From Escherichia phage vB_EcoM_IntR: 52,782 nucleotides of DNA. Where the stretch lies: the sequence record OM313460. One strand, given 5' to 3'. The notes under the pieces were generated by a model. That model saw only the letters and a program-made list of their open reading frames with translations. It made no database searches and was not told the origin of the DNA. The position numbers were made by a program, and so were the translations under genes. Of the stretch, positions 1 through 52,782 are shown in pieces (within the stretch, counting starts at the first letter, position 1; every line of letters starts with the position of its first letter).

Positions 1-121
1 ACTTAGAGGCGTCTATATGTATGATCCGGTTTATCTCTTTATTAATATCAGAACCGGATGAAAAAAATTTACGCTGGTGAAAAATAAAAAAAAGCCGGAC
101 TGATAAATAAATTTGTAGACG

Positions 122-150
122 TTTACACTATAAAAAAGATGTGTTACAAT
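122..150 (+). promoter_or_regulatory. sigma70-type promoter (TTTACA-N17-TACAAT)
   Basis: TTTACA at 122-127, 17-bp spacer, TACAAT at 145-150; upstream of the 205..636 ORF. Confidence 0.5.
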
Positions 151-204
151 ATTTATCAATGTTGCTGATTACCAAATCTTTGGATTATATACGAGGCTGA
201 ATAA

Positions 205-636
205 ATGGTTAATATAAGACAGAAAGGACAGAACTTTGAGCGTAAAATGGCTAAGAAGTTCAATAGCTCGTTCGGATTAACTGTTGAGCGCAATCTTCAA
301 CAGTCTATTAATGGCGTGGCAGACTTGTTGGGTGTGCCGTTTTTCAGCGTTGAACTGAAGAAGCACAAGACCAAGTCTATCGGAACATGGTGGAGACAGT
401 GTGCGGCATCGGCAAAGGCTCAGAACAAGATGCCAGTGCTTATATACGAACTACCAAGAAAACAGCCTACCGTGGTGATGAATAAGGCTGATGTGATTGA
501 CTGTTTTCCAAGTGGCACGACTTTTAACGAGGCATCGAANCGCCTCTTTGTGGGTNTAGTAGAATTAACATGGGAACAATTTTGCCGGGTCTACAACTAT
601 TACGTTGCGCCCGGCACTCAATATCACGTCAATTAA
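205..636 (+). CDS. PD-(D/E)XK-type nuclease-like protein (possible resolvase/endonuclease)
   Basis: ATG with GAGG Shine-Dalgarno upstream; motif GVAD...SVELKKHK resembles the D...ExK nuclease core; two N-containing codons (X) in the ORF. Confidence 0.45.
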   Translation: MVNIRQKGQNFERKMAKKFNSSFGLTVERNLQQSINGVADLLGVPFFSVELKKHKTKSIGTWWRQCAASAKAQNKMPVLIYELPRKQPTVVMNKADVIDCFPSGTTFNEASXRLFVGXVELTWEQFCRVYNYYVAPGTQYHVN

Positions 637-818
637 TCTTGTTTCAGCTCGTCACAAATGACATGCTGATTTTTGGCAGGGATAATACCAAGATTNAGNA
701 NGGTGTATGGACTATCNGCGACACATTGTTCAACGGTAGTCCATTCAGGTTTGGATTCAACAATTTTGTAACTACAATCATGAGTAGCCACACATGTTGC
801 CAGGATTAAGCCAATCAT
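633..818 (-). CDS. hypothetical protein (contains ambiguous bases)
   Basis: 61-aa ORF, AAGGTGA RBS upstream of ATG; sequence has Ns at 696-717. Confidence 0.3.
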   Translation of the reverse strand: MIGLILATCVATHDCSYKIVESKPEWTTVEQCVXDSPYTXXNLGIIPAKNQHVICDELKQD

Positions 819-994
819 AAGTAATCACCTTCAACCAGGAACTCAAACANNTGGTTGTAAACGTTGCAACCTTTAGCGAAAGAGCTTTCAGCAGGTTTAC
901 CATCGCGGACGATCATCATATACTCACCGCCATGGATGTCCACCCAGTATTGCATGCCACCTTTGACCGGATTACGTTGTAAGAATTTAAACAT
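815..994 (-). CDS. hypothetical small protein (59 aa, not in ORF track)
   Basis: ATG at 992-994 overlapping stop of upstream gene (TAATG), AGGAG RBS; my manual translation MFKFLQRNPVKGG...; contains NN at 850-851. Confidence 0.3.
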   Translation of the reverse strand: MFKFLQRNPVKGGMQYWVDIHGGEYMMIVRDGKPAESSFAKGCNVYNXXFEFLVEGDYL

Positions 995-1239
995 TATTTG
1001 CTCCTGATTCCAAGTTTATTCAATAGCCACACTGTCATGTCAACCCAGGTTAACGGTACAGTTTTCGGGGGTTGATAATCCCAGCAGCTTGCAGTTCTTT
1101 GTATTTCTGCTTGGCGCCGCTCCGCTTCGCGTAATACCGCATCGTCAGAAGTGCCGGCAGAAAAAAGATCGGTAACACCAGATAAATCGCGTTGATTAAC
1201 ACGTCGAGCAATGTCATATAAATCTTCCTTAGAAAGCAT
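994..1239 (-). CDS. hypothetical early protein
   Basis: 81-aa ORF in leftward gene array; weak RBS. Confidence 0.4.
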   Translation of the reverse strand: MLSKEDLYDIARRVNQRDLSGVTDLFSAGTSDDAVLREAERRQAEIQRTASCWDYQPPKTVPLTWVDMTVWLLNKLGIRSK

Positions 1240-1466
1240 AAGTTAATACCATAATAATTACCAGAAAAACCGCTACCAGTTTACTCATGTACCGGCCTTC
1301 AGCATATGCAGGATTCACAACAGAATACTCAACAACATGTTTACGGCGGACCATAAGGCCTCCACTTGTGGGTTAATTCAATCATGAGGACTTTTGGCAA
1401 ATCCTCAGGATTGAATTAATTACCAGCTTTTAATCAAGCCCTGTCAGCGCCAGGACTTGACTAATA

Positions 1467-1667
1467 TCACTCAATCATTATCTGTACTACTATTATACAC
1501 TCTTTATTGAAGCGGGTAAACACCTTTCCTCCATTTGTGCGTTTAGCCCCAGATTTTAGAGCTGACTGGCACCAGACATTCCATTCCTCAACTGTCAAGA
1601 ATTTTTGCTCAGCTTTGGGTGGTAGTCCATTGGCAAGGTCTACCGTAGTAAATTTGACTAGTGGCAT
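1467..1667 (-). CDS. hypothetical early protein
   Basis: ATG at 1665-1667 overlaps stop of upstream gene (ATGA coupling). Confidence 0.45.
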   Translation of the reverse strand: MPLVKFTTVDLANGLPPKAEQKFLTVEEWNVWCQSALKSGAKRTNGGKVFTRFNKECIIVVQIMIE

Positions 1668-2056
1668 CACTTGACCTCAAATTTTGACTCGTCATATTCC
1701 GGATCAGTCACGTCCCGGGTAGCACAATTTTTGATTGCCTCCCAGTAACGTTGGGCATCATCGCCATCGACATAAACTGTCCAGTGGCCGTAACCACCTT
1801 CAAATCTGTCCCAGGCTTGTTCCCAGACTTTGCCATCTTCCAGCTTGTACCAAGTTGGACGACTGTCAAACTCGCGGATTGGATGGTACCCCAATAAAGG
1901 ATTCATGATGTCAATAATGTCTGCCCTGCCAATCTCCTGGTTTTCCCACAAGATTGTCATGAATTGCTCAAACTTAAAAGCGTTTGGCAGAACTTTGATG
2001 ACTTCACCATCACAATATACGGTATAGGTGCCATCTTCGCATTTTGCACTGTACAT
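1667..2056 (-). CDS. hypothetical early protein
   Basis: 129-aa ORF, ATG preceded by AGGAGAGAG RBS; leader repeated upstream of 2563..2721. Confidence 0.55.
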   Translation of the reverse strand: MYSAKCEDGTYTVYCDGEVIKVLPNAFKFEQFMTILWENQEIGRADIIDIMNPLLGYHPIREFDSRPTWYKLEDGKVWEQAWDRFEGGYGHWTVYVDGDDAQRYWEAIKNCATRDVTDPEYDESKFEVK

Positions 2057-2129
2057 GTTTCTCTCTCCTATTGATTGTGAATAATTTCAATCATGAACTA
2101 TCACAACTTTGGATAGTTCATTGTTGAAA

Positions 2130-2303
2130 CTATACTAACTTTGTTACAATCTGAATTGTCAGCCGGAAGTCTTCCATCAAGTTATCAAACCCTTTGGAAC
2201 CACCAACCGCATCAGCTATTTGATCTTTCACAATTTGGGCATTTGATTCCAGTAATTCAATCAGGTGCGCCAATTCGTCTTCAGTCAATTTCAGGTCTTT
2301 CAT
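2130..2303 (-). CDS. hypothetical small protein
   Basis: Internal ATG at 2301-2303 with GGGTGGA RBS, ATGA overlap with upstream stop; the ORF-track start at 2318 is a TTG. Confidence 0.4.
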   Translation of the reverse strand: MKDLKLTEDELAHLIELLESNAQIVKDQIADAVGGSKGFDNLMEDFRLTIQIVTKLV

Positions 2304-2557
2304 AATGTATCCACCCAAGCCATAACTTTTGCCAGTCTTACAACGTCTTCATGGTCCCGCTCGCCATCAGAAAATTCGCTGGCGATGATACCCATAATTG
2401 ACGCCAGATTCATGTTGATGATGTAGGCGTGTTGGCGCACTTCATCAATTCCTGAATCTATCACCAGTTCCGCAAATTCCTGCGAACCTTCATCCCATTC
2501 AGCCCAATACTGCTCGGCATAAAAGTCCAGTTCTTTTTTCATCTCAATGTCAGTCAT
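2300..2557 (-). CDS. hypothetical acidic early protein
   Basis: 85-aa ORF, GAGGAG RBS upstream of ATG. Confidence 0.5.
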   Translation of the reverse strand: MTDIEMKKELDFYAEQYWAEWDEGSQEFAELVIDSGIDEVRQHAYIINMNLASIMGIIASEFSDGERDHEDVVRLAKVMAWVDTL

Positions 2558-2562
2558 TTTGA

Positions 2563-2721
2563 TTACTCCTCAGAACTTGAAAATTTGTCATCAATGGACT
2601 CAACAATATAATCAAGAGTTGAAGTGTGAGAACTATCAGAAAAAGTGCCCATCTTCTCCAGCTCAATCATCATATCCCGTAAAGCCATTGCCTGGTCTTT
2701 GGTCAGTTTAATTTTAAGCAT
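2563..2721 (-). CDS. hypothetical small protein
   Basis: ATG at 2719-2721 with AGGAGAG RBS in a conserved leader; the longer ORF-track start is a GTG. Confidence 0.35.
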   Translation of the reverse strand: MLKIKLTKDQAMALRDMMIELEKMGTFSDSSHTSTLDYIVESIDDKFSSSEE

Positions 2722-2785
2722 GTTTCTCTCCTGTTGATTGTGAATAACTTTCATTGATGGCACTACTTGAGTGCCATCTCAAAAA

Positions 2786-3355
2786 TTACTCTTCAGTTTC
2801 TTGTGCTTCAGTTTCAGGTTTTTCTTCAGTATCAGTTTTTTCACCAGTTACTGACTTACCCTCAGTCACTTTACCAGATTTTACATCATTCCGGTAGTAT
2901 GACATATATGACTGGATAACTCTTTTGGCTTTGATGTCATCCGCCTCCATTCCACAGGCTTTCATGGCATCAACAAGTGCCAATTTGGAGTCTTCTTTAT
3001 CCATCAGGTTGTAATCTTCGGGCACCACATAGCAGGTATCTTTAGTTGACGGACCAGATGACGATTTGCGAGAGCCACCAGCGGATGCTCGTGTTGTCGC
3101 AACTTTGACCTCTTCAACTTCCAGTTGGTTCAGTTCATCAAACAATGCCTTGACCAACACTTCTTTGGAGTCCTTGACACTTACAGTACTTTCATCATTA
3201 AGGGACTTAATCATCTTAATGATCTGGTTGTTGGCAAAGTACTGAAGACTATCCATCTGCACTACAATAGTCCCAAGACTTTCAGTAGTCAGACCAGATT
3301 TTACAGACTCAACAGAAAAGGCGGAAGTCAGGTAAACATAGTTGATAGTAGTCAT
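2786..3355 (-). CDS. hypothetical acidic protein (Glu/Thr-rich C-terminus)
   Basis: ATG at 3353-3355 with GAGGA RBS (ORF-track start 3424 is TTG); 189 aa. Confidence 0.5.
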   Translation of the reverse strand: MTTINYVYLTSAFSVESVKSGLTTESLGTIVVQMDSLQYFANNQIIKMIKSLNDESTVSVKDSKEVLVKALFDELNQLEVEEVKVATTRASAGGSRKSSSGPSTKDTCYVVPEDYNLMDKEDSKLALVDAMKACGMEADDIKAKRVIQSYMSYYRNDVKSGKVTEGKSVTGEKTDTEEKPETEAQETEE

Positions 3356-3450
3356 TTGATGTATCCTCGTTGATAGAATTTTTGATATGTGCCAATCCTT
3401 GGCAAGTAAGTCCAAACATGACAACTTTTGTCAAGTTGTCATGATTGAAA

Positions 3451-3753
3451 TCACTTCGCGCTTGCGTTTTCAACGGCTTGTACAACTTTCAACAAATGCC
3501 TGAAGTCATCATGATAGATTTCATTAAAGCCATCTGCCGCAAAGTTTTCGCCAATTAAGATCAGTCTTTCGCGGACCAAGTCAATCAATAGTTTATTGTC
3601 AGTTATTTCCGCACCTGTAACAAGTTCAACAAATAATTGCTGTACGTTATCGCAACGGATGTTACTTTCAATACACACTTGGCGCATGTCTTCAACTATT
3701 GACATGATTGTGACTTGCATTTCTACGTCAGAAGTGATGTTATTCAGTTTCAT
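3451..3753 (-). CDS. hypothetical early protein
   Basis: 100-aa ORF, AAAGG RBS; first gene of the leftward early array. Confidence 0.5.
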   Translation of the reverse strand: MKLNNITSDVEMQVTIMSIVEDMRQVCIESNIRCDNVQQLFVELVTGAEITDNKLLIDLVRERLILIGENFAADGFNEIYHDDFRHLLKVVQAVENASAK

Positions 3754-4125
3754 AATAGTTACCTTTGTACTAGTTTCCAGGTGTGACTACTGTTACCAAT
3801 AGTCACTAGTTGAAACTACTACTTGTGTTACTATCAACAAGAAACATGTTACCAAATTGTTAAAGAGCAAAAGGTACCATTGACATCTACCAGATGTACC
3901 TGTTGACTGGTTAAGTACTACCTACCTAATCTAAACCATACCAATATCCTTTAGACCAGTTAGACTGGTCACTCAGTCATCACATTCAATAAATATATAA
4001 TAGTCCAATCCCTCTTGATTGTACACCTTATATTTGTAAGTTTATGCAAGTTTTTAGAAATGATAATCACTTGCGATTGAGAGTGGTTCTCGTATGCTAT
4101 TGATATAGTTTCGCATGTAATTACT

Positions 4126-4205
4126 CAACTCAAAATGGTCGGCAGGGGTTATAATCACATAGGGGTGCCACTTAAAGGAGCCGGCGAAATTATTTATAAA
4201 AATAT
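4126..4205. repeat. direct repeat copy 1 (~80 bp) in control region
   Basis: TCAACTCAAAATGGTCGGCAGGGGTTATAAT...AGGGGTGCC...AAGGAGCCGGCGAAATT + AT-rich tail; matches the copy at 4301-4380. Confidence 0.6.
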
Positions 4206-4300
4206 AATTTCAATCTGAAGTATAGACGCTTTGTGTTATAACGGCCGAAGTAGTTCATACGGTAATTGTATCAATCACAATAGTTACCAGCGTAATCATT

Positions 4301-4380
4301 TCAATCGAAATAGGTGCGGCGGGGGGTAATTTCGCAAGGGTGCTACCCACCAGGAGCCAGCGGAATTTTTTTATTTTTTG
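4301..4380. repeat. direct repeat copy 2 (~80 bp) in control region
   Basis: TCAATCGAAATAGGTGCGGCGGGGGGTAATTT...AGGGTGCTACC...CAGGAGCCAGCGGAATT + T-rich tail; shares blocks with copy 1. Confidence 0.6.
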
Positions 4381-4600
4381 GTATTTTCTCCTTATCAGGA
4401 CCAATCATCATCAGAGTGATACGACAGGAGCTAACCTTTTGCCTAACACAATAATAAGTGAAGCCCCTCTAAAATTTTTTTATATTTTTCGGAAATTGTG
4501 TAGACACTCACTAAAAAGTGGTGTACTTTCTCTCCTCCACGCGCTATCATTAATGTGAATCATCAAACGGCCTCACGGTCTCCTACTTGTGGGTAACATT

Positions 4601-5164
4601 ATGAAAATTGTTCAATTAGAACCATATCCGCCTCAATTGGCTATCGTTTGTAGCGAAAAAGAGCATGAAGAGCTCCAAAAGCTGATGGATTTGCCTGATT
4701 TTGGCAACTGGAATGACCGGGAAACGCGTAATGCGTCTACTTTTACGTTCACTCGCGTTAACTATCCGTACCTGTTAATCGTCGTCGAACTGTACCACCC
4801 GGACGACCTGAAGTACAACACCATTTCCCACGAAGGCATTCACGTAATGTCGTCGCTGATGAACTATGTAGGGCTTAAATACGACCCAGAAAACGATGAA
4901 TGGTACGCATATCAGCACGATTTCATCGTAAATGCCATTTGTAAGGCCCATGATGAGTACCTGGAGCGCAAAAAAGCGCCAAAACATAAGCCAAAAATCG
5001 AAACAGGCAATCATCCTGTGATACAGCCACAAGACGTAATGAACTCGCTTTTGACTGACACTACTGGGGACTTTTTAGATGATAAACCTAATCTTTGCAA
5101 TGGGCCAAAATGGGGAATTCGGGTTGTCCCCGGAGTTTATGAAGCATCAGGTGGACTCGTGTAA
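4601..5164 (+). CDS. hypothetical protein with HExxH motif (possible zinc metallopeptidase-like)
   Basis: ATG at 4601 (ORF-track start 4589 is GTG); motif ISHEGIHVM; 3' end overlaps the next gene by 86 nt. Confidence 0.45.
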   Translation: MKIVQLEPYPPQLAIVCSEKEHEELQKLMDLPDFGNWNDRETRNASTFTFTRVNYPYLLIVVELYHPDDLKYNTISHEGIHVMSSLMNYVGLKYDPENDEWYAYQHDFIVNAICKAHDEYLERKKAPKHKPKIETGNHPVIQPQDVMNSLLTDTTGDFLDDKPNLCNGPKWGIRVVPGVYEASGGLV

Positions 5165-5753
5165 GACTATGGAAGAGGTCCGTGCGCTTCCTAAGTCTGG
5201 TTTACCATGGAAGTGTCCGTCAGATATGCTCTTTTTCAGGACTATGACTAATTCAATTGCGTCAGAACCAGGCTATAATGCGTATCAGCAACTACGGGGA
5301 CAGTTCCCAAGTGACCAGTTGCGAAACATGATAGCTGATGTAACGGTAAAAATGGTTGGGCATAGCGTATTGTTAGCCGGTCGTAAAACGTTTATGACTA
5401 TGAGTCTGCCTATGTCAGCCCACCGAATACTGCTGCCGGTATCTCGTCAGATTATGGCTTCAGAAGGCTACAACAATATAGGTGAGTTGGCAGCAGCACT
5501 TGAGACCAGTGGTTCAGATGTTTGGATTGTTGGCGGTGCACAGTTAATACTTGCGGCTCTTGAAGAGCATGCCAAAGGTACACTCCGTGTTGACAACATG
5601 TTTATCAGCACAATCAAAGAAGCAGGTCCAAGTGATATATTAATGGACCGTAGCAAATTAATGATGTACATTGATAGCGACTTCACTTATAATGATGAAT
5701 ATGTTGATAACAAATCTGTGCTGATACAGCGTTACCGGAGTGTACACAAATGA
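5079..5753 (+). CDS. dihydrofolate reductase
   Basis: N-terminus MINLIFAMGQNGEFG, LPW motif, VLLAGRKTF and VWIVGGAQL blocks match DHFR signatures. Confidence 0.7.
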   Translation: MINLIFAMGQNGEFGLSPEFMKHQVDSCKTMEEVRALPKSGLPWKCPSDMLFFRTMTNSIASEPGYNAYQQLRGQFPSDQLRNMIADVTVKMVGHSVLLAGRKTFMTMSLPMSAHRILLPVSRQIMASEGYNNIGELAAALETSGSDVWIVGGAQLILAALEEHAKGTLRVDNMFISTIKEAGPSDILMDRSKLMMYIDSDFTYNDEYVDNKSVLIQRYRSVHK

Positions 5754-6256
5754 ATATCATAGTTGAGGGACCTGACAATGCTCGTAAATCTACACTTATT
5801 AAGTTCCTTGAACCTCATCTTGGCCGCGCAGTTATTCATAATACTGTTGACAAAGATGCCGAATCGGTCATGGCTAAACAGGCCAAAGAAAACGCGCTCG
5901 AAGGCAATAGTATTTACGACCGTAGCGCTGTTATATCTGAGTATATCTATTGCATGGTTCTTCAACGTACGCCTGTCATCAATATTAATGTATCACATGT
6001 AGCAGATATGTGTGACAACGCCATCGTTATCTTTTGTATGCCGCCTATTGAAAAGGTACTGGCGACTACAAAAGAAGAGATGCCTGGTGTTGTGGAAAAT
6101 CTTGAGGCGTTATACAACCAGTATGACAACCTCATTGACGAACTGGTTATGATGGGCAAGCAGTTCTTTATTTACGACTGGACTGCTGAAGAAAATGGCC
6201 CAGAAGCAGTTCTCGAATACATCAACGAACGTATTAATAAGGAGTGGAACAAATGA
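5750..6256 (+). CDS. thymidylate kinase-like dNMP kinase
   Basis: IIVEGPDNARKST aligns with the TMK P-loop (IVIEGLEGAGKTT) but lacks the glycines; DR motif (IYDRSAVISEY); ATGA-coupled to DHFR. Confidence 0.6.
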   Translation: MNIIVEGPDNARKSTLIKFLEPHLGRAVIHNTVDKDAESVMAKQAKENALEGNSIYDRSAVISEYIYCMVLQRTPVININVSHVADMCDNAIVIFCMPPIEKVLATTKEEMPGVVENLEALYNQYDNLIDELVMMGKQFFIYDWTAEENGPEAVLEYINERINKEWNK

Positions 6257-6972
6257 GCCCAGTATACAATACCTCAGTCACGCTGTCAGCAACCGTAGGG
6301 GACGTCAACAAGACTGTTACTGTGGGTTCAACTAACCCGAACCTGTCAGGCGAAGACCTGCTACGCCTGGCCAAACGTGCTCTTGAAGATAACGAAGTGA
6401 CTGGTACTGAAGGCGTTAACATTGAAATTAACGTCGAAGGGTATCCACACAGCATCAGTATTGCTACCTCTTCATTGCCGGATGATGAAACTCGTGAACA
6501 GCTGGAAACCAAAAAGTTCAACGACGAGCTGGAATATCGTACCGGTGAGATGTTCAGCAGTGCGCTAAACTGGTACTTGTGCAAGGCTTCAAACTACGCT
6601 GGCGCTCCTATGTCAGACCGTATGTTAGCTGATATGTCTGCACGTGAAATTGCTAAAGGCTGGGCGCATGTACAGATGCTGCAGGAGCATATCTGCAAGC
6701 TGGAAAGCTGCAATAAAGACGCGTCTGAGCTTATTACTGCCTATAAGCGACAGATTAACGACCTGCAGCAACTGATGGGCAAACGCGCTGAAGAATATGA
6801 GGCTGAGATTCGTAGTCTTAACGGTACGGCTGTTGCTAACAACCGTGCTTTCAGCGAAGAGCGTAAAGCGCTTATTGCCCAGCGCGACGCTGAAAAACGT
6901 CGTGCAGACGACCTAGCAAACCGTCTTAATTTTATCCGTAAACACATGGATGCTATGGAAGGGGTAATCTGA
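6253..6972 (+). CDS. hypothetical protein (C-terminal coiled coil)
   Basis: ATG at 6253 with AGGAG RBS (ORF-track start 6244 is GTG); ATGA-coupled to upstream gene. Confidence 0.5.
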   Translation: MSPVYNTSVTLSATVGDVNKTVTVGSTNPNLSGEDLLRLAKRALEDNEVTGTEGVNIEINVEGYPHSISIATSSLPDDETREQLETKKFNDELEYRTGEMFSSALNWYLCKASNYAGAPMSDRMLADMSAREIAKGWAHVQMLQEHICKLESCNKDASELITAYKRQINDLQQLMGKRAEEYEAEIRSLNGTAVANNRAFSEERKALIAQRDAEKRRADDLANRLNFIRKHMDAMEGVI

Positions 6973-7262
6973 TGGACTTGTTCGATATGGTCGAACATCC
7001 TGAAGTAAACGGCTTGGCGGAAGCTAAGCCATTTAACTGGGATGAATTCGTAGCAGGCAAACCTGCTGTAACCCACAATGGGCAGATTGCATATTACGGA
7101 GGCCATAGCGAACATCCGATGTGCACTCACCTGTACAACGCTATCACAACCATAGCCGACGAAAACGTTATTAAATACGGAAAAGATGTAATGCCTTTTC
7201 TTGTAGATGAGCGCGGTTACTTCGAAGGTAAATGGTTCCCGTTTCTGGTAGAAATGGCCTAA
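6972..7262 (+). CDS. hypothetical protein
   Basis: 96-aa ORF, start overlaps upstream stop. Confidence 0.45.
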   Translation: MDLFDMVEHPEVNGLAEAKPFNWDEFVAGKPAVTHNGQIAYYGGHSEHPMCTHLYNAITTIADENVIKYGKDVMPFLVDERGYFEGKWFPFLVEMA

Positions 7263-7378
7263 AAACCGGATAAATATAAAGGCGTCTAAGTTAGTTCTTC
7301 ATCTATATAAGCTACTTATTCGCCTTTCTACTGTAGACTTTCTCATCATCTCTCTAGACACTTCATTTTTATATTCTG

Positions 7379-7407
7379 TTTACTTACTTCGCGTAACTCG
7401 TTATAAT
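7379..7407 (+). promoter_or_regulatory. sigma70-type promoter (TTTACT-N17-TATAAT)
   Basis: TTTACT 7379-7384, 17-bp spacer, TATAAT 7402-7407; upstream of the terminase genes. Confidence 0.55.
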
Positions 7408-7439
7408 CCCGACTATCCGGATTAACGAGGACGACACCC

Positions 7440-7730
7440 ATGGCAAAACCGAAAAAAACCCGTGAGGCAACAGAAGAACTGTTGGCCACGATGCGACGTA
7501 TCCAGCTGGACCCGTTGGAAGTTATGCAACGGGCTATCATACTTGCTGAACGTGAAGACGACTACAAAGCAATGATGGATGGTGCACTGGGCGTTATGCC
7601 GTACATGTATCCTAAGCTGAAAGAATCCGTTGTCAAAGCAGACATCGACCAGAACCTGTCTGGTAATGGTGTCAACCTGAACATTACAATAGGCGACCAG
7701 AAAGTGGTAGATACTACTGGGGAAGAGTAA
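7440..7730 (+). CDS. putative terminase small subunit
   Basis: 96-aa ORF immediately upstream of the large terminase, GAGGA RBS; assignment by position only. Confidence 0.4.
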   Translation: MAKPKKTREATEELLATMRRIQLDPLEVMQRAIILAEREDDYKAMMDGALGVMPYMYPKLKESVVKADIDQNLSGNGVNLNITIGDQKVVDTTGEE

Positions 7731-7733
7731 TAA

Positions 7734-9122
7734 ATGAATCTTGACTTTCACCTGCATGACAGACAAGGTGCCGCTCTGCGGTCTCAGGCAACTGAGATTC
7801 TGTACGGTGGTGCTGCTGGTGGTGGTAAGTCTCACCTTATGCGTGTAATGTCAATTATCATGTGTTGCATGATACCTGACTTGCAGATTTACCTTTTCCG
7901 CCGAAACTATAACGACCTTACGGCTAACCACATGGTTGGCCCCACAAGTTATCCTGCCTTGCTGGATGGTATGTGCAAAGCTGGCAAGTGCAAGATTAAC
8001 TACTCGAGCAACACTATCAAATTCTGGAACGGTGCAAACATCAAGCTCTGTCACCTCCAGTATGAAAAAGATATTTATACCTACCAGGGTGCGGAGATTC
8101 ACGTTCTGCTGATGGATGAGCTTACTCACTTCACAGAAACGATGTACCGCTTCTTGCGTAACCGTGTCCGACTCGGTGCTCTCAAAGTCCCTGAGAACTT
8201 TTTCCGGCCTCTGCCACTCATCTTTTGTGGGTCAAACCCCGGTGGTGTAGGTCACAACTGGGTTAAGCGTACTTTCGTAACTGCTGCTCCTCCGATGAAA
8301 ATCGTTAAGCAGGAAAAACGCGAAGGTGGTATGGCGCGTCAGTACATACCAGCTAAGATGACTGATAACCCTACGTTGATGGAAAACGACCCTGATTACG
8401 GCGACCGTCTTGAAGGTCTTGGTGACCCGGCGCTTGTTGCCGCGATGAAAGAAGGCGACTGGGATATTGTTGCAGGTGGTGCACTCGACGATGTATGGTC
8501 AACCAAGTGTATTCTGCCTCGTATGCGTATTCCAAAAGGCTGGACTATCGAACGTTCTCTTGACTGGGGTTCTACTCACCCGTTCTCTGTTGGTATCTGG
8601 GCTATTGCAAATGGCGCTTCGCTTACAGACGACGAAGGCAATGAGTACTTTATTCCACGTGGTTCCATTATACGTATAGCTGAATGGTATGGGTGCTCTG
8701 AAAAAGAAGCTAACAGGGGTATTAAACTTTCTGCTGCCGAAGTTGCTCAAGGTGTTATTCGTCTACAGGAAAATCTGCAGGCTGGTGGCTGGATTCAAAG
8801 CAACGTTAATCCTGGTCCGGCAGATAGTCAGATTTATGCGTGCAAGGAAAAAGACGTTGAGACTATCGCGAAGAAAATGGAAGACGAAGGCGTAACCTGG
8901 GTCAAGGCCGACAAGTCACAAGGTTCGAGAATAAATGGCTTAGAGCTATTCCGTCAGCTTCTGAAAAATGTTAAGATGGACGAAACGGAAAAGCCGGGCA
9001 TTTATTTTATGGAAAACTGTCCAGCAGCCATAAACACGTTGCCGGTTCTGCCGCGTGACAAGAACAACACGGAAGATGTCGACACGAACTCTGAAGACCA
9101 CGTATACGATGATTGTCGTTAG
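7734..9122 (+). CDS. terL: terminase large subunit
   Basis: Walker A YGGAAGGGKSHLM, Walker B LLMDELTH; followed by the portal gene. Confidence 0.85.
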   Translation: MNLDFHLHDRQGAALRSQATEILYGGAAGGGKSHLMRVMSIIMCCMIPDLQIYLFRRNYNDLTANHMVGPTSYPALLDGMCKAGKCKINYSSNTIKFWNGANIKLCHLQYEKDIYTYQGAEIHVLLMDELTHFTETMYRFLRNRVRLGALKVPENFFRPLPLIFCGSNPGGVGHNWVKRTFVTAAPPMKIVKQEKREGGMARQYIPAKMTDNPTLMENDPDYGDRLEGLGDPALVAAMKEGDWDIVAGGALDDVWSTKCILPRMRIPKGWTIERSLDWGSTHPFSVGIWAIANGASLTDDEGNEYFIPRGSIIRIAEWYGCSEKEANRGIKLSAAEVAQGVIRLQENLQAGGWIQSNVNPGPADSQIYACKEKDVETIAKKMEDEGVTWVKADKSQGSRINGLELFRQLLKNVKMDETEKPGIYFMENCPAAINTLPVLPRDKNNTEDVDTNSEDHVYDDCR

Positions 9123-18186: not shown

Positions 18187-18825
18187 ATGGCAAATCGTAC
18201 TACAGCCAACCGTCATATTGAAGACGCAGACCTGCGTCAAGAGTCGGTTACTCAGTTCCCGTTAGCCAAGCCGACCAAGCTTGATGAGAACGGAAAATTC
18301 ATTCCAACCCCAGTTACCGGTGTAACTGTTACCCCTAAAACTAAGTCAATTGCTGTTGGTGAGTTTACTACTCTGACAGCAGCAGTAGCCCCGGCAGACG
18401 CAGATGACGTCACTGTATTGTGGGAAAGCGATGCACCTGACAAAGCCACTGTTGATGGTTCAGGTCGTGTTCAGGGTATCAAAGTAGGTTCAGCAACTAT
18501 TACTGCTAAATCCAAGCTTGACCCTGCCAAAACCGATACCGTAGCAATTACGGTAACTGCTCCGCCTGTAGCCGTCACTGGTGTTACGTTAGCGCCTAAG
18601 TCGCCCAGCGTTGTAGTAGGCTCTACTGTACAGCTGACTGCAACTGTGCTGCCTGCTGGCGCTACTAACAAAGCTGTTACCTACGAGTCCAATGACACGG
18701 CTAAAGCTACTGTTAGCGCTACCGGTCTGGTGACTGGTAAAGCAGCTGGCGTCGTCACCATCACTGTCAAAACAGCTGATGGCAGCTTCACTGACACCGC
18801 GTCAGTAACTGTTACTGCCGAGTAA
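18187..18825 (+). CDS. bacterial Ig-like (BIG2-type) domain protein
   Basis: Two Thr/Val-rich repeats of the pattern VTGVT...ATVD..G.V.G...G.ATIT..T.DG. Confidence 0.6.
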   Translation: MANRTTANRHIEDADLRQESVTQFPLAKPTKLDENGKFIPTPVTGVTVTPKTKSIAVGEFTTLTAAVAPADADDVTVLWESDAPDKATVDGSGRVQGIKVGSATITAKSKLDPAKTDTVAITVTAPPVAVTGVTLAPKSPSVVVGSTVQLTATVLPAGATNKAVTYESNDTAKATVSATGLVTGKAAGVVTITVKTADGSFTDTASVTVTAE

Positions 18826-47324: not shown

Positions 47325-47615
47325 TTATTTTAAGGCAGAAGTGCAAATAGCATCACACAAACAATAATGAGCACGGTCGTAGTCTTCAAACAAGAACACT
47401 TCGCCGTTGGCGACTACTTCAATATCGTTAACTTGCATGCTGATACCAGAATGCAGGAGCACATCCATAGCCTGGTCCTTGTTCTTGTACGGGTCCCAAA
47501 TAAGCTGGAAGCCTGACCCGCAAAGGAGACATCCCTTGAGCTCCGGAAGAGTTGACTCCTTCACAGTCACATTACAAATCTTAGCCAGTTTAGCACGAGA
47601 ATCGAGAGTACTCAT
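47325..47615 (-). CDS. hypothetical protein
   Basis: 96-aa ORF, ATGA-coupled to the upstream gene. Confidence 0.45.
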   Translation of the reverse strand: MSTLDSRAKLAKICNVTVKESTLPELKGCLLCGSGFQLIWDPYKNKDQAMDVLLHSGISMQVNDIEVVANGEVFLFEDYDRAHYCLCDAICTSALK

Positions 47616-49994: not shown

Positions 49995-52503
49995 TATTCT
50001 CGGTCTGAAATACTTTAAGCCAGAAGGGATTCCCCAAGTCTTCAAAGATATGAAGCGCTGGGCTATCTTTGAGCTGACGTACGAAGACGAGACTCTCGAA
50101 GTTCAATCCAAACCTAAGAAACCTGCAAGAGCGCCATCAGGCCGTTCCTTCAGCACAACTGTGCCTGAAGAGTGGATGACTTTCGACGACGCCCTGTCAC
50201 GTTGTATTCGCAATCGTGAAATGAAGATTAAAGCTGTACAGGGGAATATCACCTTTGTGCCGGCTTTGGTTGTTCCTCGCCAGTGGTACTTTGTTGACCT
50301 GGACAACCATGAAGATAACCCAGACATTGAAGCTACCCACAAAGCGATAATTGAAGGGACTCGTGGTGCTTATGCCGAGACGTCAATCTCTGGCAAAGGG
50401 CAACACATTGCAATCCCTTTACCCTGGACTGCAGCAACATCTAAAGAGAAAGACGAACAACTGGACATCAAAATCCAGAAGGCTGAGATGTTCCTGGTAA
50501 TGACAGGCAATGTATTGAGTGAGTTCAATGCTAATCCTGTTTCAGCCCGTGAATGGCATGCAGCAATTGAGAAGTTCTTTCTTGAATCAAGCGCACCTGA
50601 TATTGATGTTGAGTTTGAGCAAGACGAAGACCGTGGCGAAGAGTATGACAAAGAGCTGTACGAACAGCTAGCCGACAATACTCGCTGGGCGCTTGAGCAC
50701 TATCTTAGCGACTACGCACCAGACGGTGTTGGTGTGAGTAATGACGGTTCTGAACGTTTAAGCCGTATCTTAAAAGACTTGCTTCGTGTAACCCGTAACT
50801 ATGAAGTTACACAACGCATCTTCATGGCCAGCAAAGCTGCAGCATACGAAGGTCGTCGTGCAAGTCGACATAGTTTGTCTGTTGACAAGTACCATCAGTG
50901 GTTCAGTCGTGTTGGTAAGACTGTGCTGAAAGAGATGCAACGTGATGGCTTATTCGTCAAGACCAAGTTTGCTCTTGACATCAACAAAGAGTTAACCAAG
51001 AATTCTGGGGTGTCACTGGCTGAGAACGTTGAGTTCAAAGTCAACGACGATATTCTGCCATCTGACGTATTTGTCAGAACGGCCCCGTCCGGGTTTAAAC
51101 GGCTTATTGCTGAGATACAGGATAACATATCTCCGGCTAACAGGGTTAACGACTATGCAATTGGCACAGCTCTTAACATCCTGAGCAACTGCGCCGGTCG
51201 TAAGTATGTTTGTCCAGTAGGCGGTCATGCTAACTTCCTGGTAACCAACATCATTCTTGTGGGTGGTTCATCAATCGGTAAATCGTTGTATACCGAGATG
51301 TTCCCACAAATCCAGGCAAGTTTACCTGACACATCGCCTATCAGCCTTAATCGTATTCCAAGGGAACAGACTTTTGCAACCAGGACGTTCGCTGAACTGA
51401 TGGCTAACCCGTCATACCATTCAGTCCAGTTGTTCTACCCTGAATTTGGTCTGGCTTTAGGTTCTGGCTTACGCATGAATCCTAACAACCCTGACAACTT
51501 TCAGAAAGCTCTGATGGACGCTTCAACCAAGCGTAAGGTTGGCGGTATACTGACAGGTATCAAACGTGCTAATGCTGACAATGATGTCAAGACAGTAAGC
51601 GAACCATGCTACTCTATCCTGGGGGACTCAACTCAAGAGCTTATCCTTGACAACACCCGGAAGCAAGACTTCTCAAGTGGCTTTTTGCCCCGCTTCCTGT
51701 TCATCCCGAACTATGAGCGAGCGGAGTTTGCCAAACCTGAGAAGGTAGGACGTCGCCAGCAGATTCGCCGTACTCAATTCTCCAAAGAGCTGATTGAGAA
51801 ACTGGAAGCAATCGCTTATGTGAATGCTATCCCGCCTAACGGTAAACTAAGGCACGACCCGATTCCTATTTACGACGAATCGGATGATGATGACTTCCTG
51901 TACGAATACCAGTGCAATATTAATGATATGCGCCAGTATTACAGGGATAACGAAGTAGCATCTGCCTTTGTGGGCCGAATGGGCGAGTATGTATTCAATA
52001 TAGCAGCACTGATTGGACTACTCGATAACTGGGATGCTCCTGTTATGACCAGGGACAACATCGAATGGGCTTACAAATATGTTCTTCGTTGTATAACCGC
52101 CTGGGTCAATAACACAAGCAGGATAGTCGCACCACCAACTACCAACGCCGAAGTAGTGGACGGCTTCCTCAAAGTCTACAGGGACATTTTGGCCCTTTAC
52201 ACCAAAAGAGGATGGAACGGTATTGTTAAGCATTATCCTGAGGGTGTTGTGAGAAGTATCCGGGAAGAACACCTCCAGATGAATGGTTTAAGCATATATG
52301 CTATTCGTCAGTCTTTGAGCTGGTTTAAATCGAATTACGGTTTTAATATCACAGCTAACAACAAAGTCATTGACGGTATGCTGCAGGATATGATTGACCA
52401 GGACTATTTAGCAGTTCAAATATATAAGCCCACAAGAGGCCGATCTGCTAACATTTACTGCCTGACAGAGCGAGGATATGACACTGCTAAGAAGTTAAAA
52501 TAA
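49969..52503 (+). CDS. DNA primase-polymerase / SF3 helicase fusion
   Basis: Prim-pol motifs WYFVDLDNHED (hDhD) and SISGKGQHIAIP (sGxGxH); C-terminal P-loop ILVGGSSIGKS. Confidence 0.75.
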   Translation: MTMTSQPSDILGLKYFKPEGIPQVFKDMKRWAIFELTYEDETLEVQSKPKKPARAPSGRSFSTTVPEEWMTFDDALSRCIRNREMKIKAVQGNITFVPALVVPRQWYFVDLDNHEDNPDIEATHKAIIEGTRGAYAETSISGKGQHIAIPLPWTAATSKEKDEQLDIKIQKAEMFLVMTGNVLSEFNANPVSAREWHAAIEKFFLESSAPDIDVEFEQDEDRGEEYDKELYEQLADNTRWALEHYLSDYAPDGVGVSNDGSERLSRILKDLLRVTRNYEVTQRIFMASKAAAYEGRRASRHSLSVDKYHQWFSRVGKTVLKEMQRDGLFVKTKFALDINKELTKNSGVSLAENVEFKVNDDILPSDVFVRTAPSGFKRLIAEIQDNISPANRVNDYAIGTALNILSNCAGRKYVCPVGGHANFLVTNIILVGGSSIGKSLYTEMFPQIQASLPDTSPISLNRIPREQTFATRTFAELMANPSYHSVQLFYPEFGLALGSGLRMNPNNPDNFQKALMDASTKRKVGGILTGIKRANADNDVKTVSEPCYSILGDSTQELILDNTRKQDFSSGFLPRFLFIPNYERAEFAKPEKVGRRQQIRRTQFSKELIEKLEAIAYVNAIPPNGKLRHDPIPIYDESDDDDFLYEYQCNINDMRQYYRDNEVASAFVGRMGEYVFNIAALIGLLDNWDAPVMTRDNIEWAYKYVLRCITAWVNNTSRIVAPPTTNAEVVDGFLKVYRDILALYTKRGWNGIVKHYPEGVVRSIREEHLQMNGLSIYAIRQSLSWFKSNYGFNITANNKVIDGMLQDMIDQDYLAVQIYKPTRGRSANIYCLTERGYDTAKKLK

Positions 52504-52557: not shown

Positions 52558-52670
52558 AGCTTATTTTACAAACTGATTAATATTTAAACTATAATTAAAT
52601 ATATGGACCCTAAGAGTATGATTTTATTACTCTTTTACAAATCATAATATATGGGCTCCCTATAAAAAGA

Positions 52671-52745
52671 TTAAGGGGGTAATAAGGGGATCCAAGTACC
52701 GGATAAAAGGGGTATATATTTATTTTATTATTATTATTATTATTA
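52671..52745. repeat. AT-rich region with three G-tract iterons and a (TTA)7 microsatellite
   Basis: TTAAGGGGG (52671), ATAAGGGG (52683), ATAAAAGGGG (52703) and TTATTATTATTATTATTATTA at 52725-52745. Confidence 0.55.
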
Positions 52746-52782
52746 TATATTATTAATTATATTAGAAGTAATAAAAACAGCT

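What the first reader, a model, noticed from the sequence alone, without database searches (positions are those of the whole stretch)
4126..4380. Two ~80-bp direct repeats in the ORF-free control region between the divergent early and rightward blocks
Copies at 4126-4205 and 4301-4380 share ordered blocks (TCAA.TC.AAAT.GG..GGC.GGGG.TAAT, AGGGTGC, AGGAGCC.GCG.AATT) followed by an A/T-rich tail. They are not explained by a sigma70 promoter at consensus spacing, and I could not fold them as simple terminators or tRNAs. The duplication and conservation suggest paired regulatory sites (operators or transcription factor binding sites) or small RNAs.
Basis: seen in the sequence. Interest (0 to 1): 0.6.

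Follow-up and report, generated by a model that had tools for sequence, protein, structure and literature searches.

The report
Twin genome-end cutting sites of phage
The two ~80-bp repeats are most likely the places where this phage's DNA is cut to make the ends of the packaged chromosome, not operators or small RNA genes: the right copy marks the right edge of a ~4.3-kb terminal repeat, and in a relative the left copy is a second cut site 176 bp inside it.

Summary
The repeat is real. Window 4104-4195 aligns with 4279-4371 at score 39, against 16.0 +/- 2.5 in shuffles (0 of 2000). Both copies are kept in five lineages of Rosemountvirus/Loughboroughvirus phages, always 175-177 bp apart. No RNA evidence was found: no Rfam or tRNA hit, unremarkable folding energy, and zero consensus pairs on either strand. 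No sigma-70 promoter is conserved.

The repeats coincide with mapped virion DNA ends in relatives.
- fHy-Eco03: the 3699-bp terminal repeat ends inside copy 2 (..GCCCC|GGCAAATTTTTT).
- vB_SalM_Sz: the exact 4263-bp repeat ends at the same place.
- AEV23: the left-end-to-copy-2 distance is exactly the published 3915 bp.
- fHy-Eco03 PhageTerm table: strong second peaks on both strands (T 0.40 and 0.59) exactly at the copy-1 junction I had predicted, so copy 1 is cut blunt on both strands.

The left genome end (window 75|76) shares copy 1's right flank. My model is a composite site: a left half that specifies right ends and a right half that specifies left ends. Copy 2 has the left half, the left terminus has the right half, and copy 1 has both.

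Predicted for this window: terminal repeat 76-4358, cuts at 4182|4183 and 4358|4359. The ends are known in relatives; the twin-site architecture appears undescribed.

The parts
52..75 (+). Outer flank of the left genome terminus (L site): AACCGGATGAAAAAAATTTACGCT, ending at the predicted cut 75|76.
   Evidence: The vB_SalM_Sz record starts at the homologous base. The fHy-Eco03 left repeat starts at the homologous base, a PhageTerm + peak with T 0.66. AEV23/S144 homology breaks exactly here.
76..4358 (.). Predicted long direct terminal repeat (4283 bp). It is present once in this unit-length window and twice in virion DNA.
   Evidence: The distance from the L site to the copy-2 cut was computed. 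The homologous repeats are 4263 bp in Sz, 3699 bp in fHy-Eco03 and 3915 bp in AEV23/S144.
76..120 (+). L-type inner flank: GGTG, then an A/T-rich stretch, then TAGAC at +41 (116-120).
   Evidence: Copy 1's right flank has the same layout: GGCG at +1 and TAGAC at +41 in window and AEV23, +40/+41 in fHy-Eco03 (read from the sequences).
122..150 (+). Sigma-70-like promoter TTTACA-17-TACAAT with a TG extension, 47 nt inside the left end and facing inward.
   Evidence: 10 of 12 matches.
205..636 (+). PDDEXK endonuclease gene, the first gene inside the left end. It is an alternative candidate for the cutting enzyme.
   Evidence: Pfam PF24608, E 3e-17. The homologue gp02 is virion-associated in fHy-Eco03.
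4102..4182 (+). Copy 1, R-type left half. It has NAAT motifs at -81, -66, -51 and -32 from the cut, the G-run GGCAGGGGT, CAC..GTG, and AAAGGAGCC ending at cut 4182|4183.
   Evidence: In fHy-Eco03 the homologous junction carries PhageTerm peaks on both strands: + 51118 (T 0.40, p 2e-26) and - 51117 (T 0.59, p 4e-149).
4183..4227 (+). Copy 1, L-type right half: GGCGAAATTATTTATAAAAATATAATTTCAATCTGAAGTA, then TAGAC at 4223-4227.
   Evidence: GCCGGCGAAATTATT is identical in the window, S144, SE4, KE25 and SOI901; fHy-Eco03 has CCCCGGCGCAATTTTT instead. The layout resembles the left-terminus flank.
4262..4358 (+). Copy 2, R-type left half. It has 15-bp-spaced GTAAT/ACAAT/GTAAT/GAAAT units at -97, -82, -67 and -52, GTAAT at -33, the G-run GGCGGGGGG, GGGTGCTACCC, and CCAGGAGCC ending at cut 4358|4359.
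   Evidence: TRF detects the 15-bp array in S144. The right boundary of the terminal repeat lies at the homologous position in Sz, fHy-Eco03 and AEV23.
4359..4380 (+). Copy 2 outer flank AGCGGAATTTTTTTATTTTTTG, outside the terminal repeat. On the bottom strand it reads A-tract-TTCCGCT|GGC, which resembles the outer flank of the L site.
   Evidence: 15 of 24 identical to the L-site top strand, against 7 of 24 for the other orientation.
4453..4505 (+). A weak third related element: AAGCCCCTCTAAAATTTTTTTATATTTTTCGGAAATTGTGTAGACAC.
   Evidence: Repeat D3. A minor PhageTerm minus-strand peak (T 0.07, p 1.7e-7) lies 160 bp right of the copy-2 cut at the homologous place in fHy-Eco03.
7440..7730 (+). 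Putative small terminase subunit.
   Evidence: It sits directly upstream of TerL. The S144 homologue is annotated as putative small subunit. No Pfam hit.
7734..9122 (+). Large terminase subunit, the presumed cutting enzyme.
   Evidence: Weak Terminase_6N hit. The homologues in AEV23 and S144 are annotated as terminase large subunit.

Best explanation
The two repeats are tandem copies of the site at which this phage's replicated DNA is cut to make the ends of the packaged chromosome.

The virion chromosome carries a long direct terminal repeat, predicted here as window 76-4358. Copy 2 holds its right boundary, with the cut at 4358|4359 in ..CCAGGAGCC|AGCGGAATTTTTTT. Copy 1, 176 bp to the left, is a second cut site (4182|4183, ..GGAGCC|GGCGAAATT). 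In a relative it is cleaved blunt on both strands in a large share of molecules.

I infer a composite site with two halves. The ~80-bp left half (NAAT motifs spaced 15 bp apart, a G-run, CAC..GTG, then ..GCC) directs formation of a right end. A right half (GGCG, about 36 nt of A/T-rich sequence, then TAGAC at +41) goes with formation of a left end.
- Copy 2 has only the left half and gives only right ends.
- The true left terminus (75|76) has only the right half and gives only left ends.
- Copy 1 has both halves and gives both kinds of end.

The cutting enzyme is most likely the terminase (7440-9122), with the small subunit binding the repeated array. That step is inferred, not shown.
For: Shown in relatives:
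1. fHy-Eco03 (MW602648) is annotated with a left terminal repeat at 1-3699. Base 3699|3700 lies in copy 2 (..TTTAAGCCCC|GGCAAATTTTTTATTTTTTT). The repeat was found with PhageTerm and checked by restriction digestion.
2. vB_SalM_Sz (PP236111) carries an exact 4263-bp repeat at both ends with 0 mismatches. Its right edge is ..CCAGGAGCC|AGCGGAATTTTTTT, which is the same sequence as window 4358|4359.
3. AEV23 has a published repeat of 3915 bp. The distance from |GGCGGAAAATTT to CGCC|GACGG in copy 2 is exactly 3915, whereas the distance to copy 1 is 3740. S144 gives the same 3915.
4. The fHy-Eco03 PhageTerm table lists + strand peaks at 47595 (T 0.66) and 51118 (T 0.40, p 2e-26), and - strand peaks at 51293 (T 0.68) and 51117 (T 0.59, p 4e-149). 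51293-51117 = 176, and 51118 maps to record base 3524, the first base after the copy-1 cut. I had placed that cut from sequence alone, before seeing the table.
5. S144 restriction mapping places a non-cohesive physical end in this gap. The two anomalous SspI bands of 5-7 kb fit ends at copy 1 and copy 2 (7117 + 5662) better than L..C2 alone (10857 + 5662).

Supporting sequence features:
- The copy 1 to copy 2 cut distance is 175-177 bp in 12 genomes from 5 lineages, despite about 30% divergence in between.
- The L-site flank and copy 1's right flank share GGCG at +1 and TAGAC at +41. fHy-Eco03 has GGCGCAA in both, whereas the window, Sz, KE25 and SOI901 copy 1 have GGCGAAA.
- The presence of each half predicts which strand shows a peak at all three sites.
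Against: - No read data exist for this window's own phage, so its ends are inferred by homology. The sequence at copy 2 is identical to Sz, and the L site differs from Sz by three substitutions within the 12 bases after the cut.
- How the Sz termini were determined is not known to me.
- The vB_SenM-1 paper reported a COS strategy from PhageTerm for a Rosemountvirus.
- The ZCSE2 authors could only say that the reads circularise.
- The fHy-Eco03 authors did not interpret the copy-1 peaks, and I could not see the raw data or the gels.
- Nothing here shows that the ~80-bp left half, rather than only the few bases at the junction, is what the enzyme recognises, or that terminase is the enzyme.
- The similarity between the L site's outer flank and copy 2's bottom strand is in A-rich sequence and may be compositional.
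Confidence: 0.85

Rival explanations
1. The sites are genome-end sites, but a dedicated endonuclease rather than terminase cuts them. One candidate is the PDDEXK nuclease encoded just inside the left end (205-636). It could act by strand-specific nicks at L (top strand) and copy 2 (bottom strand) followed by strand-displacement synthesis, as in the Watson model for T7.
For: The L site shows only a + peak and copy 2 only a - peak, as staggered nicks would give. The outer flanks share A-tract-TT-N-CGCT|GG on the nicked strand. A PDDEXK nuclease gene lies next to the terminus and its homologue is found in virions.
Against: No link ties this nuclease to the sites. The flank similarity is in low-complexity A-rich sequence. 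Copy 1 is cut on both strands at one position, which the nick model does not need.
Confidence: 0.12
2. Only copy 2 and the L site are true packaging cuts. The ends seen at copy 1 would then be breaks made after packaging or during DNA preparation, for example at paired nicks or a fragile structure. Copy 1 itself would be an auxiliary binding site or an evolutionary relic.
For: PhageTerm called the class from L and copy 2 only. The fHy-Eco03 authors report restriction fragments that fit the L..C2 map.
Against: T values of 0.40 and 0.59 with p values of 2e-26 and 4e-149 are close to those of the accepted termini. The S144 gel independently fits left ends at copy 1. Copy 1's GCCGGCGAAATTATT is kept unchanged in five of the six lineages compared, more than copy 2's junction, and its spacing to copy 2 is fixed.
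Confidence: 0.1
3. The repeats are mainly transcription control sites (operators, or promoters for a modified host polymerase) in the early control region, and the overlap with DNA ends is incidental.
For: They lie between divergent gene blocks. PhagePromoter predictions in S144 overlap both copies. A short CAC..GTG dyad and 15-bp-spaced motifs would suit a DNA-binding protein.
Against: The TATAAT-like hexamer is not kept: copy 1 in KE25, SOI901 and fHy-Eco03 has TAAACG or TAATCG. The spacing to the best -35-like hexamer is 13-16 nt (read). The motif occurs nowhere else in the genome. Exact coincidence with mapped ends at three sites in three phages is very unlikely by chance.
Confidence: 0.05
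4. Each repeat encodes a small structured RNA.
For: A T-rich tract follows copy 2, and the sequence is conserved.
Against: There is no Rfam family at E<10 over the copies and no tRNA. Folding z-scores are +0.36 and +0.40 on the + strand and -0.9 and -1.6 on the - strand. RNAalifold gives 0 pairs for the 17-sequence alignment on both strands. No terminator-like hairpin is present.
Confidence: 0.03

Closest known systems
T7/T3 concatemer junction (short direct terminal repeats, site-specific terminase cuts, Watson staggered-nick model)
   Same: Ends are non-permuted, non-cohesive and defined by sequence. The repeat is bounded by two different sites, one giving only left ends and one giving only right ends. 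The copy 1 to copy 2 interval (176 bp) is the size of a T7-type repeat (T7 160 bp, from my own knowledge).
   Different: The main repeat here is 3.7-4.3 kb, which PhageTerm classes as 'DTR (long), T5'. There is a third, internal site cut on both strands. No sequence similarity to the T7 sites was tested.
T5-type long direct terminal repeats
   Same: The repeat is several kb long and carries the pre-early/early genes. This is the PhageTerm class assigned to fHy-Eco03.
   Different: The T5 repeat is about 10 kb, and how its boundaries are defined is, to my knowledge, poorly understood. Nothing comparable to the duplicated ~80-bp element is known to me. T5's site-specific nicks are single-strand, whereas copy 1 shows ends on both strands.
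N4-like phages (direct repeats of variable length)
   Same: There is a precedent for heterogeneous ends from one phage: a unique left end and several right ends, giving repeats of 390-440 bp (PMC3896407).
   Different: In N4 the alternative right ends are a few to tens of bp apart and have 3' overhangs. Here the alternatives are 176 bp apart, lie at duplicated sites, and one also serves as a left end.
Lambda cos (cosQ-cosN-cosB) and SPP1/P22 pac sites
   Same: These are multipartite sites in which an array of small-subunit binding motifs lies beside the cut. Copy 1 behaves like a cos site in giving both a left and a right end.
   Different: The ends here are blunt and non-cohesive (+ start 51118 and - start 51117; S144 heating test), and the genome is not permuted. 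Both defining features of cos and of headful pac are therefore absent.

Membership tests
Boundary site of a direct terminal repeat (physical genome end) | Coincides with experimentally mapped ends of virion DNA. | tested here: met
   Homologous positions in fHy-Eco03, Sz and AEV23. The test is by homology, not on this phage's own DNA.
Boundary site of a direct terminal repeat (physical genome end) | The sequence between the left and right boundary is present identically at both ends of the chromosome. | tested here: met
   Sz has 4263 bp with 0 mismatches at both record ends. fHy-Eco03 is annotated with repeats at 1-3699 and 53313-57011. The window itself is a unit-length record, so this cannot be seen in it.
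Boundary site of a direct terminal repeat (physical genome end) | Ends are neither permuted nor cohesive. | tested here: met
   From the literature only: PhageTerm reports 'Permuted: No, Redundant', and the S144 heating/cooling test excludes cohesive ends. One conflicting COS call exists for vB_SenM-1.
Boundary site of a direct terminal repeat (physical genome end) | Cleavage is carried out by the phage terminase at this sequence. | not testable with these tools
   Needs an in vitro cleavage assay or genetics.
T7-type short terminal repeat (copy 1 to copy 2, 176 bp) | A left end at the first site and a right end at the second site on the same molecule. | tested here: inconclusive
   A + peak at copy 1 and a - peak at copy 2 both exist, and the S144 gel fits. 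Short reads cannot show that the two ends sit on one molecule.
Lambda-type cos site | Staggered nicks giving complementary single-stranded ends. | tested here: not met
   The + start at 51118 and the - start at 51117 are adjacent, which means a blunt cut. There are no cohesive ends in S144.
Headful pac site | Circular permutation with imprecise downstream ends. | tested here: not met
   PhageTerm reports 'Permuted: No' and single-base peaks.
Small RNA gene | A conserved secondary structure supported by covariation, or membership of a described family. | tested here: not met
   No Rfam hit. RNAalifold gives 0 pairs on both strands. Folding z-scores are not significant.
Sigma-70 promoter | Conserved -35 and -10 hexamers 16-18 bp apart. 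| tested here: not met
   There is no scan hit on the + strand in either copy. The hexamer after the G-run is TAAACG or TAATCG in three lineages, and the spacing is 13-16 nt.
Operator / transcription-factor site | Bound by a regulator, with an effect on transcription. | not testable with these tools
   Only a weak CAC..GTG dyad and 15-bp-spaced motifs are seen. No regulator has been identified.

The most novel reading that the evidence does not exclude
One phage may package a mixed population of chromosomes from three related sites.
- Packaging starts at the left terminus L.
- It ends at copy 1 or at copy 2 of the next genome unit.
- A blunt cut at copy 1 also provides the left end for the next, processive round.

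Virions would then hold L..C2 and L..C1 molecules (repeats of about 4.3 and 4.1 kb), C1..C2 molecules (a 176-bp, T7-sized repeat) and perhaps C1..C1 molecules with no redundancy. The half-site layout (left half gives right ends, right half gives left ends) would be the code that decides which kind of end each site can make. The lineage would then be a living intermediate between short-repeat and long-repeat packaging.

My rough estimate from the T values, the 150-nt reads and the ~625-bp inserts is that copy 1 supplies about a quarter to two-fifths of the ends.
Probability: 0.35. Interest if true: 0.75.

Novelty: new variant of a known kind. Interest (0 to 1): 0.55.

Why it matters
How phages with long direct terminal repeats define the two repeat boundaries is still poorly understood, and genome records of this group are mostly deposited as arbitrary circular permutations without ends.

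- **A sequence signature.** The result gives a signature for the ends of Rosemountvirus/Loughboroughvirus phages, several of which are proposed as therapy or biocontrol agents. It allows their ends to be annotated from sequence alone: here repeat 76-4358, for a virion DNA of about 57,065 bp.
- **A natural experiment.** The three sites carry different combinations of two half-sites, and the combination matches which strand ends are observed. That is directly testable by half-site swaps.
- **A practical warning.** Conserved repeats in an "early control region" of a phage can be packaging signals. Engineering or deleting this "non-coding" stretch could destroy genome maturation.

Tried and rejected
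**RNA readings**
- Rfam at E<=10 over 3700-4700 gave only chance hits outside the copies.
- ARAGORN found no tRNA in the whole window.
- Single-sequence folding of both copies on both strands was not better than shuffles.
- RNAalifold on 17 diverged copies gave no consensus pairs.

**Coding reading**
- A 27-codon ORF (ATG 4135 to TGA 4216-4218) is open in the window and in S144. By eye, it lacks the ATG and has an in-frame stop in KE25, SOI901 and fHy-Eco03.

**Other readings tried by eye**
- Sigma-54 (TGGCAC-N5-TTGC) and sigma-32 readings of the minus strand do not sit in the same register in the two copies.
- The resemblance to the type I-E CRISPR repeat (GCCAGCGGGGATAA) lacks the 5' stem half.

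**Searches for more distant relatives**
- Two exact-pattern scans of viral contigs returned only the four known isolates plus chance matches.
- A protein-guided scan of viral contigs gave nothing new.
- A protein-guided scan of metagenomes gave one close relative and three unrelated weak hits.
- Covariation therefore rests on five lineages.

**Other checks**
- TRF did not detect the 15-bp array in the window itself; it did in S144.
- The LPSEYT record breaks 7 nt right of the copy-2 cut, which is near but not exact, so I treat it as weak support.
- A cut-site regex finds one extra match at 2371-2383. It is kept only in close relatives and is probably chance.

Full report
**What the window is.** The window is a unit-length genome of a BP63-like myovirus (Rosemountvirus). 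It has the same length and coordinates as Escherichia phage vB_EcoM_swi3 but differs by about 5% substitutions, mostly at third codon positions. The finding lies in an ORF-free gap of about 850 nt. To its left is a block of small leftward early genes ending at 3753. To its right is a rightward block starting at 4601.

**The observation.** The two copies are real.
- A local alignment of 4100-4215 with 4276-4391 scores 39, against 16.0 +/- 2.5 in 2000 dinucleotide shuffles. None reaches 39.
- No other place in the window matches copy 1 as well.
- The aligned part is about 4104-4195 against 4279-4371, slightly longer than reported.
- A degenerate motif search finds only these two copies.

**Conservation.** Both copies are present in the same order in Loughboroughvirus S144 and SE4, in the divergent Rosemountvirus-like phages KE25 and fHy-Eco03, and in Erwinia phage SOI901. 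Scans of viral contigs and metagenomes added no further lineage.

**RNA and promoter readings.**
- Rfam, tRNA and terminator scans are negative over the copies.
- Folding energies are ordinary.
- An alignment of 17 diverged copies has no consensus structure on either strand.
- The TATAAT-like hexamer after the G-run is not kept in three lineages, and its spacing from the GAAA block is 13-16 nt.
- The phage group has no RNA polymerase of its own.

I therefore drop the small-RNA and promoter readings.

**The decisive lead: physical ends.** A paper on the Rosemountvirus fHy-Eco03 reports direct terminal repeats of 3699 bp, found by PhageTerm and checked by restriction digestion. Three data sets then place the right repeat boundary inside copy 2.
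- In record MW602648 the left repeat is annotated 1-3699. Base 3699|3700 lies inside copy 2..GGGGTGTTAATTTAAGCCCC|GGCAAATTTTTTATTTTTTT.
- Record PP236111 (vB_SalM_Sz, 57,020 bp) has an exact 4263-bp repeat at both ends. Its right edge is ..CCAGGAGCC|AGCGGAATTTTTTT, the very sequence of window 4358|4359.
- For the Loughboroughvirus AEV23 the published repeat is 3915 bp. The distance from its left-end motif |GGCGGAAAATTT to CGCC|GACGG in copy 2 is exactly 3915, and to copy 1 it is 3740. S144 gives the same 3915.

In addition, the AEV23 record loses homology with S144 exactly at the left cut. [quoted passage not shown]

**Copy 1 is also cut.** From sequence alone I placed the equivalent junction of copy 1 in fHy-Eco03 after base 3523 (CCCC|GGCG). 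The PhageTerm table in that paper's supplement lists these peaks in assembly coordinates:

| Strand | Position | T | p | Site |
|---|---|---|---|---|
| + | 47595 | 0.66 | 1.5e-114 | left terminus L |
| + | 51118 | 0.40 | 2.1e-26 | copy 1 |
| - | 51293 | 0.68 | 1e-195 | copy 2 |
| - | 51117 | 0.59 | 3.9e-149 | copy 1 |

- 51293-51117 = 176, which is the copy 1 to copy 2 spacing.
- 51118-47595+1 = 3524, the first base after my predicted cut.
- Copy 1 is therefore a blunt double-strand end in a large share of virion DNA.
- L shows only left ends and copy 2 only right ends.
- The authors did not comment on these second peaks in the text I could read.
- The S144 gel agrees. Its two unexpected SspI bands of 5-7 kb replacing the 12.6-kb band fit 7117 + 5662 (ends at copy 1 and copy 2) better than 10,857 + 5662.

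**Anatomy.** The cut lies at the centre of a GCC|GGC-like core in nearly all lineages.

*Left of the cut.* Copies 1 and 2 share about 80 bp (TRF finds the 15-bp array in S144):
- NAAT motifs at -97, -82, -67, -52 and -33 in copy 2, and at -81, -66, -51 and -32 in copy 1;
- a G-run;
- a CAC..GTG dyad;
- (A)AGG.GCC.

*Right of the cut.* Copy 1 does not resemble copy 2. It resembles the left end of the genome instead: GGCG at +1, about 36 nt of A/T-rich sequence, and TAGAC at +41. In the window these lie at 76/116 for L and 4183/4223 for copy 1. fHy-Eco03 has GGCGCAA in both L and copy 1, where the window, Sz, KE25 and SOI901 have GGCGAAA in copy 1.

*Half-site pattern.* Copy 1 looks like a right-end half joined to a left-end half.

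| Site | Right-end (left) half | Left-end (right) half | Ends observed |
|---|---|---|---|
| L | absent | present | left ends only |
| Copy 1 | present | present | both |
| Copy 2 | present | absent | right ends only |

This matches the strand pattern of the peaks at all three sites.

*Spacing.* The copy 1 to copy 2 distance is 175-177 bp in 12 genomes, although the sequence in between is about 30% diverged and nearby spacers carry indels of 7-20 nt.

**Mechanism.**
- *Shown in relatives:* the positions and strands of the ends.
- *Inferred:* that the shared left half is the recognition element for making right ends, that the GGCG..TAGAC flank goes with left ends, and that the terminase (7440-9122) does the cutting with its small subunit on the 15-bp array.
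- *Weaker observation:* the outer flank of L on the top strand and of copy 2 on the bottom strand both read A-tract-TT-N-CGCT|GG in this lineage and ..TTGCC|GG in fHy-Eco03. This would suit staggered nicks as in the Watson model for T7, but the sequence is A-rich and the match may be compositional.
- *Rough estimate of my own:* taking T = t/(t + 0.24 i), where t is the number of copies of a site that lie at a molecule end and i the number that lie internally per molecule, with 150-nt reads and ~625-bp inserts, copy 1 supplies about a quarter to two-fifths of the ends.
- *One model that fits, unproven:* packaging starts at L and ends at copy 1 or copy 2, and a copy-1 cut also feeds the next processive round. 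This would explain why right ends at copy 1 outnumber left ends there, and why no left ends are seen at copy 2.

**Prediction for this window.**
- Terminal repeat: 76-4358 (4283 bp).
- Virion DNA: about 57,065 bp.
- Cuts: 75|76, 4182|4183 and 4358|4359.

**Comparison with known systems.**
- The kind is known: site-specific ends with direct terminal repeats, as in T7 (short) and T5 (long).
- Heterogeneous right ends are known in N4-like phages.
- It is not a cos site, because the ends are blunt and non-cohesive. It is not a headful pac site, because the genome is not permuted.
- What I did not find described in the papers on this group is the duplicated composite site at a fixed 176-bp spacing and the internal site cut on both strands.

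**Caveats.**
- There are no reads for this exact phage.
- The method behind the Sz termini is unknown to me.
- One paper calls COS for a related phage.
- I could not see the gels or the coverage plots.

Noticed in passing
window 1-8620 vs L001 (MT768059): The window has the same length and coordinates as phage swi3 but differs at 452 of 8620 bases with no indels. In five genes, 162 of 228 differences are at third codon positions, so it looks like a natural close relative rather than the deposited record.
   Followed up: partly
window 4601-5086 (+): The first rightward gene is annotated 'putative Ku protein' in S144. Across four lineages the motif aligns as S/A-H-E-G-I/V-H-V-M, with H, E, G, H, V, M invariant; this looks like an HExxH metalloprotease signature. 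It has no Pfam hit, so the Ku label seems doubtful.
   Followed up: partly
window 205-636 (+): The first gene inside the predicted left end is a PDDEXK endonuclease (PF24608, E 3e-17). It is called resolvase or RusA-like in other records, and its fHy-Eco03 homologue gp02 was detected in virions. It could have a role in end processing.
   Followed up: no
window 122-150 (+): A strong sigma-70-like promoter (TTTACA-17-TACAAT with TG, 10 of 12) lies 47 nt inside the predicted left end and faces inward. This would suit expression from the first DNA to enter the cell.
   Followed up: no
window 52660-52782 and 1-75: The ORF-free stretch before the left cut has G-run motifs (AAGGGGGTAATAAGGGGAT, AAAAGGGGTATAT) and an (ATT)n-rich tract. 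The exact 9-mer GGGGGTAAT occurs only at 52675 and at 4322 in copy 2. An inverted repeat (9-31 / 52-74) abuts the cut.
   Followed up: partly
window 4453-4505; L143 (fHy-Eco03) about 3830-3880: A third, weaker element (T-tract, then GTGTAGACA) follows copy 2. In fHy-Eco03 a minor PhageTerm minus-strand peak (T 0.07, p 1.7e-7) lies 160 bp right of the copy-2 cut, at the homologous place.
   Followed up: partly
L145 (AEV23, OR810919) 1-1744: The AEV23 record carries about 1.7 kb of IS5 transposase and methyltransferase DNA joined exactly at the phage's left terminus. This is probably host DNA attached during assembly at a physical end.
   Followed up: partly
window 18322-18815: GTAAC/GTAAT.GTTAC-like motifs cluster here (14 genome-wide against 4.3 expected). 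They lie inside ORF 18187-18825, so they are probably coding repeats unrelated to the terminus array.
   Followed up: partly
window 2371-2383 (+): AAAATTCGCT|GGC matches the cut-site regex inside an early gene. It is kept in Sz and swi3 but not in fHy-Eco03 or AEV23, so it is probably chance.
   Followed up: partly
fHy-Eco03 and S144 papers: Both papers report that virion DNA resists many restriction enzymes, which points to an unidentified DNA modification in this phage group.
   Followed up: no
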